Shown: one piece after another, positions 1-1,421 of the stretch | Layout of the letters: each line of letters starts with the position of its first letter | Numbering within the stretch: the first letter of the stretch is position 1 | Translations under genes and position numbers: made by a program | Notes under the pieces: model-generated | The model's database searches: none | What the model saw: the letters and a program-made list of their open reading frames with translations, nothing else | What the model was told of the DNA's origin: nothing | NCBI GenBank assembly: GCA_000004985.1 | Contig: GG739426.1 | From: Naegleria gruberi | Taxonomy: Eukaryota | Reading direction: 5' to 3' (one strand) | DNA length: 1,421 nt

Positions 1-432
1 TCCAAGAGGCAATATGTTGAATTTGATGAAGAAGAAGTTCCTCAAGAGAATTCCAAATCTGGCATGGATATCTTGACCTACAAAACAAATCCAATCAACA
101 TTAATAACCATCATCCTCAAAGAAGAATGATCAATAGAATTACTCCTCAAACAGTATCTCAATTAAGACCAATCGAATCAAATGCCCCAACTATTACTAA
201 TCCACAAATTTATAATTCATTTGTTCGACCAAATAACTTTGTTACCACAGCTCCACCAGCTATTGCTCGACCAAATAACTTTCCTCAAACGCAACCTCAT
301 GAAGCCATGAATCTGCAAAATATTGGTATCAATTTGGTCACCAATCCAACTCCTACAGCTCCAAATCATACCGTTAACAGAGCCAGAGTTGTAGAAGCTT
401 TGAGAAAATTGATTGCCTCTATGAAGAAATAA
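1..432 (+). CDS. C-terminal 143 codons of a hypothetical protein, 5'-partial (continues upstream of the window). It has an acidic stretch EFDEEEVPQE, a long N/Q/P/T-rich low-complexity region and a basic amphipathic tail RARVVEALRKLIASMKK.
   Basis: Frame 1 has no stop from base 1 to TAA at 430-432, so the track ORF 64-432 is only the part downstream of an internal ATG. 143 stop-free codons are unlikely by chance in AT-rich DNA. Codon usage is yeast-like (Arg always AGA, Pro CCA/CCT, Leu TTG/TTA). An internal 16-nt direct repeat tcgaccaaataacttt at 225-240 and 267-282 encodes RPNNF twice. Function is unknown. Confidence 0.6.
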   Translation, partial: SKRQYVEFDEEEVPQENSKSGMDILTYKTNPININNHHPQRRMINRITPQTVSQLRPIESNAPTITNPQIYNSFVRPNNFVTTAPPAIARPNNFPQTQPHEAMNLQNIGINLVTNPTPTAPNHTVNRARVVEALRKLIASMKK

Positions 433-520
433 ACAATTAAGATTTGGTATATTTGAAAATTTAATGGCTCTGGGAATATTTAATAAAATTCACAATTTAT
501 GAACAATTAGGTTAGTAAAT
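433..520 (+). terminator. Putative 3' UTR and polyadenylation region of the upstream gene (yeast-type efficiency and positioning elements).
   Basis: It is AT-rich immediately after the TAA stop. A TATAT-like element ggtatattt lies at about 446-454 and AATAAA at 482-487, with further A/T-rich runs to about 520. This is a motif-level call only. Confidence 0.3.
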
Positions 521-579
521 TGTTTAGAAGTTTTCACTGGTTCACCACATCCATTACACATTCACTTGAATGGCTGTCG

Positions 580-586
580 TATAAAA
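580..586 (+). promoter_or_regulatory. Candidate TATA box (TATAAAA) for the downstream proline-rich protein gene.
   Basis: An exact TATAAAA lies at 580-586, about 200 bp upstream of ATG 786. That fits yeast spacing of TATA to TSS (40-120 bp) plus a leader. An A8 tract at 729-736 and a pyrimidine-rich leader at 751-784 (ccactcatcgcctcctcgtgtgtctttttt) precede the ATG. The start context is acaaATG, A-rich as usual in yeast. Confidence 0.3.
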
Positions 587-785
587 CCGCTATGTATCTC
601 TTCTAATAGTTTTCTTATTAATACGAACAATTGTAAATAAACAGGCCAATACAATACTCAAATTATGAATCTCGCCACTAATTTGTTTAACAGTAAAATT
701 TGAGTCATCACAGAAATTATTTATCTTTAAAAAAAAGAACAAAACAACACACCACTCATCGCCTCCTCGTGTGTCTTTTTTACAA

Positions 786-1421
786 ATGATTAAGGCTAGA
801 AGAAGTAATAACTTTTCGATTTTAATTGGAGTTGTATTGGCGTGCATGATTGCATTCTTGAGCGTGTATGCACATGCTGGTAAGGGTGCTTCTGCTCCAC
901 CTCCTCCATCACCAAGAGCTGCTGCTCCTCCACCACCACCAGTTTCTAGACCACCACCAGTTGCACAACCGGTTTCAAGACCACCTCCTCCACCACAACC
1001 TGTGGCAAGAGCTCCTCCTCCACCTCCAGTTTCAAGACCACCACCAGTTGCACAACCAGCTTCAAGACCAGCTTCTCCACAACCGGTTTCTAGACCAACA
1101 CCAGTTGCACAACCTGTATCAAAGCCTGCTGCCCAACCAGTTTCTAAACCAACCGTTCAACTAAAGCCAGCTTCAGTTGGCTCACCAATTGTTGTCAACA
1201 ATAAGAACCCTGCTAAATCTTTCCCAAAAGAAGGTGATAAAGATTTTGTAGGTCCTGTTCTTCCAAAGAAACAATCAGCAGCTGCCCTTAAACCAGTAGC
1301 ACAACCAACTGTTGAAAAGAAATCTGTTGCCAAGACTGACAAGAGTCAAGTCAAATCAGCAGCTGAAAAGAAGAAGGCCGATGTAACACCAAAAGAAATT
1401 GCTAAACCAACAAAGAAGCCA
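786..1421 (+). CDS. N-terminal 212 codons of a proline-rich tandem-repeat protein with an N-terminal signal anchor or signal peptide, 3'-partial (runs off the window end). Predicted type II membrane or secreted/cell-surface protein.
   Basis: ATG at 786 is followed by 212 sense codons with no stop through base 1421 (frame 0, 636 nt). This frame is not in the supplied ORF track. The translation begins MIKARRSNNFSILIGVVLACMIAFLSVYAHAGKGASAPPPPSPRAAAPPPPPVSRPPPVAQPVSRPPPPPQPVARAPPPPPVSRPPPVAQPASRPASPQPVSRPTPVAQPVSKPAAQPVSKPTVQLKPASVGSPIVVNNKNPAKSFPKEGDKDFVGPVLPKKQSAAALKPVAQPTVEKKSVAKTDKSQVKSAAEKKKADVTPKEIAKPTKKP. It has a positively charged n-region (KARR), a 20-residue hydrophobic core and an AHA-G site. 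Codon bias is strongly yeast-like (all Arg AGA, Pro CCA/CCT, Ala GCT, Ser TCT/TCA). Confidence 0.8.
   Translation, partial: MIKARRSNNFSILIGVVLACMIAFLSVYAHAGKGASAPPPPSPRAAAPPPPPVSRPPPVAQPVSRPPPPPQPVARAPPPPPVSRPPPVAQPASRPASPQPVSRPTPVAQPVSKPAAQPVSKPTVQLKPASVGSPIVVNNKNPAKSFPKEGDKDFVGPVLPKKQSAAALKPVAQPTVEKKSVAKTDKSQVKSAAEKKKADVTPKEIAKPTKKP
813..878 (+). other. Hydrophobic segment FSILIGVVLACMIAFLSVYA (residues 10-29) plus AHA (to residue 31). Either a type II signal anchor or a cleavable signal peptide with predicted cleavage AHA|GK after nt 878.
   Basis: There are 20 consecutive mostly aliphatic residues directly after the basic N-terminus MIKARRSNN (positive-inside rule puts the N-terminus in the cytosol). 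A small-x-small motif A-H-A lies at -3/-1 relative to G32. The core is long for a signal peptide, so anchor versus cleaved cannot be decided by eye. Confidence 0.55.
942..1163 (+). repeat. Eight tandem imperfect in-frame repeats of 24-30 nt encoding the decapeptide consensus (V/A)SRPPPVAQP, preceded by a degenerate proline-rich lead at 897-941 (PPPPSPRAAAPPPPP).
   Basis: Units: 942-971 gtttctagaccaccaccagttgcacaaccg (VSRPPPVAQP); 972-1001 (VSRPPPPPQP); 1002-1028 (VARAPPPPP); 1029-1058 gtttcaagaccaccaccagttgcacaacca (28/30 nt identical to unit 1); 1059-1085 (ASRPASPQP); 1086-1115 (VSRPTPVAQP, 27/30 identical to unit 1); 1116-1139 (VSKPAAQP); 1140-1163 (VSKPTVQL). Degeneracy increases 5' to 3'. 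Confidence 0.85.

What the first reader, a model, noticed from the sequence alone, without database searches (positions are those of the whole stretch)
786..1421. Real gene absent from the ORF track; the listed ORFs over it are shadow frames
The longest and best-supported coding frame in the right half of the window is ATG 786 to the window end: 212 codons, signal sequence right after the start, strong yeast codon bias. It is not in the six-frame track, presumably because it has no in-window stop. The track instead offers 868-1164(+), a His/Leu/Gln-rich +1-frame reading of the CCA/CCT repeat, and 1157-1342(-), which is antisense to the gene. An annotation pipeline that trusts closed ORFs would miscall this locus.
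Basis: seen in the sequence. Interest (0 to 1): 0.6.

Follow-up and report, generated by a model that had tools for sequence, protein, structure and literature searches.

The report
Truncated Naegleria proline-rich secretory gene
The open frame from base 786 to the window end is a real gene, but it is an already-annotated, cut-off Naegleria gruberi (amoeba, not yeast) gene for a proline-rich protein with an N-terminal membrane-targeting helix, so this is an ordinary ORF-listing artefact.

Summary
ATG 786 opens a stop-free frame of 212 codons that runs to the window end. It is missing from the ORF list only because that tool drops ORFs that run off the sequence. ORF 868-1164(+) is its +1 phase and ORF 1157-1342(-) is antisense; both score as non-coding.

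The window is not yeast: it is a whole 1421-bp contig of Naegleria gruberi. GenBank already carries this gene in the same frame as 'predicted protein, partial' (XP_002668031.1, bases 846..1382). So the public pipeline did not miscall the frame.

The one small new point is the start. A 175-aa N. gruberi paralogue (XP_002667955.1) aligns from ATG 786, with 82% identity over the first 34 residues. The GenBank model therefore probably starts 20 codons too late and cuts the N-terminal hydrophobic helix in half.

The product has a basic N-terminus, a 19-residue hydrophobic helix ending in AHA|G, about 90 residues at 42% proline in roughly 10-residue repeats, then a lysine-rich tail. It is predicted disordered after the helix. 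No real relative beyond the paralogue turned up among 1.84 billion representative proteins, Pfam or PDB.

Most likely it is a secreted or type-II-anchored disordered protein specific to this lineage. Interest is low.

The parts
786..1421 (+). 5' part (212 codons, no stop) of a protein-coding gene cut off by the contig end. It corresponds to GenBank XP_002668031.1/EFC35287.1 'predicted protein, partial [Naegleria gruberi]', which covers only 846..1382.
   Evidence: Open frame. 100% match to P0001. Paralogue P0002 aligns only to this frame, E 1e-50. Codon log-odds +105.7 bits against -59 to -179 for the other five frames.
786..788 (+). Probable true start codon, 20 codons upstream of the GenBank model's start.
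   Evidence: It is the first ATG after the in-frame stop at 666. The paralogue begins MIKPRRSNFSLLIGVV and aligns from this codon, 28/34 identical. The context is TTTTTTACAAATG.
846..848 (+). Second in-frame ATG (codon 21), used as the start by the GenBank model. It lies in the middle of the hydrophobic helix.
   Evidence: P0001 begins MIAFLSVYAHA. The hydrophobic stretch is residues 10-28 and the predicted helix is residues 8-31.
786..878 (+). N-terminal targeting segment: basic n-region MIKARRSNN, hydrophobic core FSILIGVVLACMIAFLSVY, then small residues A-H-A before G32. It is either a cleavable signal peptide or a type II signal anchor.
   Evidence: Maximum Kyte-Doolittle 19-residue mean is 2.52 at residues 10-28. 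AlphaFold2 gives a helix at 8-31 with pLDDT 80-87. 82% identical in the paralogue. Cleavage and topology are inferred, not shown.
888..1160 (+). Proline-rich repeat region (residues 35-125, 42% Pro) made of degenerate units of about 10 residues, (P)PPVAQPVSR/K. The DNA tandem repeat has periods of 30 and 57 bp.
   Evidence: Tandem Repeats Finder: 933-1122, period 30, 6.5 copies; 964-1117, period 57. Composition and motif positions. The paralogue lacks about 44 residues here, so repeat number varies.
1161..1421 (+). Lysine-rich, non-repetitive region (residues 126-212; 23% Lys; 20 K+R against 8 D+E). It holds the best conserved internal motif, KSFPKEGDxxFVGPVxPKKQ.
   Evidence: Composition, alignment A1, no secondary structure and pLDDT 40-66.
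868..1164 (+). Shadow ORF: the +1 phase of the proline-rich repeat. Not a gene.
   Evidence: Listed. Codon log-odds -127 bits and AT3 of 23%. No tblastn match of the paralogue in this frame.
1157..1342 (-). Shadow ORF antisense to the gene (TTG start). Not a gene.
   Evidence: Listed. Codon log-odds -8.6 bits against +16.2 for the sense phase 0 over the same bases.
433..785 (.). AT-rich intergenic spacer (29% GC) between the upstream gene's stop and ATG 786. It should hold the upstream gene's 3' end and this gene's promoter and 5' UTR.
   Evidence: GC is 0.292 here against 0.361 and 0.459 in the flanking coding parts. AATAAA occurs at 428, 482 and 636. The functional assignment is inferred.

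Best explanation
Bases 786-1421 are the 5' part of a real protein-coding gene of the amoeboflagellate Naegleria gruberi, cut off because the assembly contig ends at base 1421. The gene is already in GenBank as a partial 'predicted protein'. Translation most likely starts at ATG 786, not at ATG 846 as in the GenBank model. The N-terminus (basic MIKARRSNN, then a 19-residue hydrophobic helix, then AHA|G) most likely sends the nascent chain into the ER. It would act either as a cleaved signal peptide or, given its long hydrophobic core and its positively charged N-flank, as a type II membrane anchor. In both cases the rest of the chain would face the lumen or the cell exterior. That rest is about 90 residues at 42% proline in degenerate (P)PPVAQPVSR repeats, likely an extended and stiff spacer, followed by a lysine-rich basic tail with one conserved motif (KSFPKEGDxxFVGPVxPKKQ). 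The C-terminal part of the protein lies beyond the contig and is unknown. The closed ORFs listed over the gene are by-products of the strongly biased CCA/CCT/GTT/GCA/CAA/AGA codon repeat, which produces few stops in the +1 phase and on the antisense strand. Shown: the open frame, coding phase, organism, existing annotation, paralogue, conserved N-terminus, repeat structure, and lack of other relatives. Inferred: ER targeting, topology, disorder-based spacer role, and any surface or matrix function.
For: The frame is open for 212 codons; 0 of 5000 shuffles reach that length. There is a 100% match to NCBI XP_002668031.1 and, for the upstream ORF, to XP_002668030.1, both from N. gruberi on a contig of 1421 bp, which is the window length. 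Paralogue XP_002667955.1 aligns only to phase 0, from codon 1, with 82% identity over residues 1-34 and conserved internal motifs. Codon log-odds and third-position A+T favour phase 0 by more than 150 bits over the other phases in the repeat. The hydrophobic maximum of 2.52 lies at residues 10-28, and AlphaFold2 predicts a single helix at 8-31 with the rest coil at low confidence. The tandem repeat has a 30-bp period, equal to 10 codons.
Against: There is no transcript or protein evidence. No signal-peptide predictor was available, so cleavage and topology rest on simple rules: a basic n-region, hydrophobicity, small residues at -3 and -1, and positive-inside. The GenBank model stops at 1382, just before GTAACA, so its authors' gene caller may have placed an intron there. 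If that is correct, the last 13 codons of the 212 are intronic. The paralogue keeps D-V across this point, which argues weakly against an intron. The family consists of two truncated models on tiny contigs of 1421 and 1085 bp, so it could be a poorly assembled repeat-rich region, and no function can be read from homology.
Confidence: 0.85

Rival explanations
1. The GenBank model is correct as it stands. Translation starts at ATG 846 and the exon ends at 1382 with a splice donor at GT 1383, so the product has no complete signal or anchor segment.
For: P0001 covers exactly 846..1382. GTAACA follows base 1382.
Against: The 20 codons upstream of ATG 846 are open and start with ATG 786. They are 80-90% identical at protein level to the paralogue's own N-terminus, MIKPRRSNFSLLIGVVLVCV. 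A start at 846 would halve a conserved hydrophobic helix. The paralogue model reads through the equivalent D-V.
Confidence: 0.1
2. This is a yeast (Saccharomycotina) secreted proline-rich protein gene.
For: The codon preferences (CCA, AGA, GTT, GCT, CAA, TCT) resemble those of highly expressed yeast genes.
Against: Both encoded proteins are 100% identical to N. gruberi GenBank entries on a contig of the same length. The search of 1.84 billion representative proteins returned only the two N. gruberi models and three repeat-only matches, none of them a homologue.
Confidence: 0.01
3. The N-terminal helix is a reverse signal anchor or is not used for targeting. The polyproline runs (PPPPP) would then lie in the cytoplasm and act as profilin- or SH3-type ligands, as in the FH1 regions of formins or in WASP/VASP-type actin regulators.
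For: There are several runs of 4-5 consecutive prolines. N. gruberi has a large formin family, and two of its formins were once predicted to carry secretion and membrane signals (PMC2386819; later withdrawn, PMC11194305).
Against: The charge balance puts the N-terminus in the cytoplasm and the proline-rich part outside: K3, R5 and R6 before the helix, against one Lys and one distant Arg after it. Pfam finds no FH2, WH2 or other actin-related domain in the 212 residues. There is no sequence relative among formins.
Confidence: 0.04

Closest known systems
GenBank XP_002668031.1 / EFC35287.1, predicted protein, partial [Naegleria gruberi]
   Same: Same locus, same reading frame, 100% identical over 179 residues.
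   Different: The GenBank model starts at ATG 846 and stops at 1382. The frame is in fact open from ATG 786 to 1421, and the paralogue supports the upstream start.
GenBank XP_002667955.1 / EFC35211.1, predicted protein, partial [Naegleria gruberi] (paralogue, 1085-bp contig)
   Same: Same architecture: MIKxRRSN, hydrophobic helix, YAHAGKG, PPPVAQPVS(R/K) repeats, KSFPKEGDxxFVGPVxPKKQ, lysine-rich tail. About 50% identical overall and 82% at the N-terminus.
   Different: It has fewer repeat units, with about 44 residues missing in the proline-rich part, and a divergent tail. It is also truncated.
Proline-rich secreted structural proteins (plant and algal extensins/HRGPs, proline-rich wall proteins)
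   Same: N-terminal secretory signal followed by a long, repetitive, proline-rich, basic, unstructured region.
   Different: It has no Ser-Pro(3-5) motif and no Tyr cross-link motifs (sequence read; only Y28 is present). There is no sequence homology. It comes from a heterolobosean amoeba, not a plant.
Plant class I (transmembrane) formins, N-terminal part
   Same: Signal peptide followed by a proline-rich extracytoplasmic stretch (general architecture as described in PMC11194305).
   Different: No second transmembrane segment, FH1 or FH2 domain lies within the 212 residues available. The remainder of the protein is missing, so this is a resemblance of the N-terminal part only.
Stem regions of type II Golgi-resident enzymes
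   Same: Short basic cytoplasmic tail, a single hydrophobic helix of about 19 residues, then a proline-rich unstructured stalk.
   Different: No catalytic domain is present in the available sequence, and the small-residue AHA|G motif after the helix fits a cleaved signal equally well.

Membership tests
Annotated N. gruberi gene XP_002668031.1 (identity with an existing database entry) | Identical protein sequence in the same reading frame on a contig of the same length | tested here: met
   100% identity over 179 aa, contig length 1421.
Secretory-pathway proteins with an N-terminal signal peptide or signal anchor | Basic n-region, an uninterrupted hydrophobic h-region, and small uncharged residues at -3 and -1 of a candidate cleavage site | tested here: met
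   MIKARRSNN, then FSILIGVVLACMIAFLSVY (Kyte-Doolittle 19-residue mean 2.52), then A-H-A|G. Predicted helix at 8-31. Conserved in the paralogue. This was a heuristic test only; no trained predictor was available.
Secretory-pathway proteins with an N-terminal signal peptide or signal anchor | Actual ER translocation, cleavage or membrane topology | not testable with these tools
   Needs experiment (localisation, N-terminal sequencing).
Extensins / hydroxyproline-rich glycoproteins | Repeated Ser-Pro(3-5) motifs | tested here: not met
   The 212-aa translation contains no SPPP. The proline runs follow A or R: APPPP, RPPP, APPPPP.
Formins | FH2 domain (Pfam PF02181) C-terminal to the polyproline FH1 region | tested here: inconclusive
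   Pfam finds nothing in the 212 residues, but the C-terminal part of the protein lies beyond the contig end.
   The only real relatives are two N. gruberi proteins. The other three matches are repeat-only.
Any Pfam-A family | Match above the gathering score | tested here: not met
   0 families at E <= 1.

The most novel reading that the evidence does not exclude
The two tiny contigs carry the missing 5' ends of membrane-inserted actin regulators, for example formins with a signal peptide and a proline-rich ectodomain. This is an architecture currently thought to be unique to plants. It was once predicted for two N. gruberi formins and later withdrawn (PMC2386819, PMC11194305). A more modest version: they define a Naegleria-specific orphan family of secreted or anchored proline-rich surface or cyst-wall proteins with no relative among about 15 billion proteins.
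Probability: 0.03. Interest if true: 0.55.

Novelty: already known. Interest (0 to 1): 0.1.

Why it matters
It matters little beyond housekeeping. The case shows that a list of closed ORFs misses genes cut off by a contig end and offers shadow frames of codon-biased repeats in their place. It also shows that guessing the organism from codon preference alone can be wrong: here an AT-rich amoeba was mistaken for yeast. The one usable output is a likely correction to GenBank XP_002668031.1. Moving the start 60 bases upstream to ATG 786 restores a complete N-terminal signal or anchor helix and changes the predicted location from cytosolic or unknown to secretory or membrane. The protein family appears confined to N. 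gruberi and its function is unknown.

Tried and rejected
Pfam scan of the 212-aa product found no family.

PDB sequence search gave only weak compositional matches: bL20m at E 0.05 and Med9.

The word-indexed homologue search found only the gene itself and one paralogue.

The exhaustive HMMER profile search of 1.84 billion representatives added three matches. All lie in unrelated repeats (EPISQEMTRG, REQPMSKPTA, PVAQPVAM), so I rejected them as compositional.

The JGI metagenome scan with conserved peptide patterns gave 600 pattern matches, none confirmed by tblastn.

I tried to find a longer contig that would extend the gene 3', using exact look-up of P0001, P0002 and P0003. None is on record.

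The Rfam scan found nothing above gathering score.

A literature search for the accession numbers found no paper.

I considered and rejected a yeast origin, an extensin identity (no SPPP motif) and coding status for either listed ORF.

I did not run the prokaryotic promoter and terminator scan or the phage, plasmid and E. coli searches, because the sequence is eukaryotic.

Full report
**Observation.** The window was read in full. Bases 786-1421 translate without a stop into 212 residues that begin MIKARRSNNFSILIGVVLACMIAFLSVYAHAGKG.
- The nearest upstream in-frame stop is TGA at 666. The only in-frame ATGs are at 786 and 846. The other two plus-strand phases carry 8 and 17 stops over the same bases.
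- The six-frame list lacks this frame for a purely mechanical reason: the tool does not list ORFs that run off an end of the source.
- The list does contain 868-1164(+), which is phase +1 of the gene and reads as a His/Leu/Gln-rich peptide, and 1157-1342(-), which is antisense.
- None of 5000 shuffles of 786-1421 gave 212 open codons (maximum 182). The analytic probability is 3.5e-5.

**Which frame codes.** Three independent lines agree on phase 0.
- *Composition.* The third codon position of phase 0 is 81% A+T over the whole frame and 93% within the repeat, although the region is C-rich. The other phases give 23%.
- *Codon score.* I used the codon frequencies of the other gene in the window (bases 1-429) as reference. 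Over 868-1164 the log-odds are +85 bits for phase 0, -127 for the listed +1 ORF and -69 for phase +2. Over 1157-1342 they are +16 for phase 0 and -8.6 for the listed antisense ORF.
- *Paralogue.* A related protein from a different contig (P0002) matches the window by tblastn in one frame only. The match runs from base 786 to 1385 with E 1e-50 (uncorrected). With composition correction, a 34-residue N-terminal block still stands at 82% identity, E 1e-16.
The two listed ORFs are therefore shadow frames of a codon-biased repeat.

**Where the sequence comes from.** It is not yeast.
- The 212-aa product is 100% identical over 179 residues to NCBI 'predicted protein, partial [Naegleria gruberi]' (XP_002668031.1 / EFC35287.1).
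- The upstream ORF 64-432 is 100% identical to XP_002668030.1 (NAEGRDRAFT_54996).
- Both sit on a single contig of 1421 bp, which is exactly the window length.
- N. gruberi is a heterolobosean amoeboflagellate in Discoba.
The window is a complete small assembly contig, so the gene cannot be extended 3' from it. Exact look-ups of the three proteins in the contig collection found nothing longer.

**What the public annotation has, and where it is probably wrong.**
- The GenBank model is phase 0, so the frame was not miscalled. It runs from ATG 846 (MIAFLSVYAHA...) to base 1382 (...EKKKAD).
- The paralogue XP_002667955.1 begins MIKPRRSNFSLLIGVVLVCVIAFLSMYAHAGKG. It aligns residue for residue from ATG 786, with 28 of 34 residues identical.
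- ATG 786 is the first ATG after the in-frame stop at 666. It follows a T-run and ACAA.
- ATG 846 lies inside the hydrophobic helix.
- The start is therefore most likely 786, and the GenBank product lacks its first 20 residues.
- The model's 3' end at 1382 precedes GTAACA, which may reflect a predicted splice donor. However, the frame stays open to 1421, and the paralogue keeps Asp-Val across that point. I read 1383-1421 as probably exonic, with modest confidence.

**Anatomy of the product.**
- *Residues 1-9:* basic (K3, R5, R6).
- *Residues 10-28:* FSILIGVVLACMIAFLSVY. This is the hydrophobic maximum (Kyte-Doolittle 19-residue mean 2.52) and is followed by A-H-A|G.
- *AlphaFold2:* run on the two-sequence alignment, it gives one helix at residues 8-31 (pLDDT 80-87) and no secondary structure elsewhere. 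Mean pLDDT is 57 and pTM 0.18.
- *Residues 35-125:* 42% proline, in degenerate units of about 10 residues, (P)PPVAQPVSR/K. The matching DNA tandem repeats have periods of 30 and 57 bp at 933-1122. The paralogue has about 44 fewer residues here, so repeat number differs between copies.
- *Residues 126-212:* 23% lysine, 20 K+R against 8 D+E. This part contains the best conserved internal block, KSFPKEGDxxFVGPVxPKKQ.
- The product has a single cysteine, inside the helix. The only N-x-S/T site lies before the helix.

**Relatives.**
- Pfam gives no family at E <= 1.
- The PDB sequence search gives only weak compositional matches.
- A HMMER profile of the two paralogues, run against 1.84 billion representatives of about 15 billion proteins, returned the two N. 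gruberi models plus three proteins. Those three match only in unrelated tandem repeats.
- A JGI metagenome scan confirmed nothing.
- No paper in the library cites the accessions.
In the data reachable here, the family is two truncated N. gruberi genes on contigs of 1421 and 1085 bp.

**Most likely mechanism (inferred).** The N-terminal segment has the three-part layout of an ER-targeting signal. Its long hydrophobic core and positive N-flank fit either a cleaved signal peptide (AHA|G) or a type II anchor. Both place the proline-rich and lysine-rich parts in the lumen or outside the cell. The proline-rich repeats would form an extended, non-globular spacer, and the basic tail could bind anionic surface material. 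Whatever lies C-terminal is unknown. I put the 'real, truncated, already annotated secretory or membrane proline-rich gene' reading at about 0.85. The specific role (surface, matrix or enzyme stalk) is open.

**Rivals.**
- *The GenBank boundaries are right (start 846, donor at 1383).* This is disfavoured by the conserved upstream 20 codons (confidence about 0.1).
- *Cytoplasmic polyproline ligand of the formin or WASP type.* The charge distribution and the absence of any such domain argue against it, but the missing C-terminus prevents exclusion (about 0.04). Two N. gruberi formins were once predicted to have secretion and membrane signals, a claim later withdrawn (PMC2386819, PMC11194305). 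This is the basis of the 'novel case', which I rate at about 3%.
- *Yeast origin.* Refuted.

**Verdict.** The organism guess is wrong. The locus is already annotated in the right frame. What remains is an ORF-listing artefact plus a probable 60-base start-codon correction to a hypothetical protein of unknown function. Interest is low, at 0.1.

Noticed in passing
window 1-432 (+): The upstream gene's frame is open from base 1, giving 143 codons to the TAA at 430-432. GenBank annotates only ATG 64..432 as a complete 122-aa 'predicted protein' (NAEGRDRAFT_54996). It is probably the C-terminal fragment of a longer protein cut by the contig's left end. Pfam gives one weak, colinear, sub-threshold match to the lariat debranching enzyme C-terminal domain (PF05011, E 0.38, 11.6 bits against a cutoff of 26; residues 3-106 on profile positions 16-125 of 138). 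The homologue search found only the protein itself and the PDB search found nothing.
   Followed up: partly
window 1380-1421 (+): The GenBank partial CDS ends at 1382, directly before GTAACA, which suggests a predicted splice donor. Yet the frame continues open to the contig end, and the paralogue conserves Asp-Val across the junction.
   Followed up: partly
window 327-402 (-): An Rfam match to CLRN1-AS1 (a vertebrate lncRNA conserved region) has E 0.0006 but scores 25.3 bits against a gathering score of 48. It lies inside the upstream coding region on the opposite strand. I take it as chance.
   Followed up: no
window 428-641: There are three AATAAA hexamers, at 428 (overlapping the upstream gene's stop codon), 482 and 636, in the 29%-GC spacer. 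They are candidate polyadenylation-type signals for the upstream gene, but I did not check whether Naegleria uses this motif.
   Followed up: no
window 888-1160 vs P0002: The paralogue lacks two blocks, of about 23 and 21 residues, within and just after the proline-rich repeats. The two gene copies therefore differ mainly by repeat-unit number. Both copies lie on very small contigs (1421 and 1085 bp), which hints that this repeat-bearing region did not assemble well.
   Followed up: no
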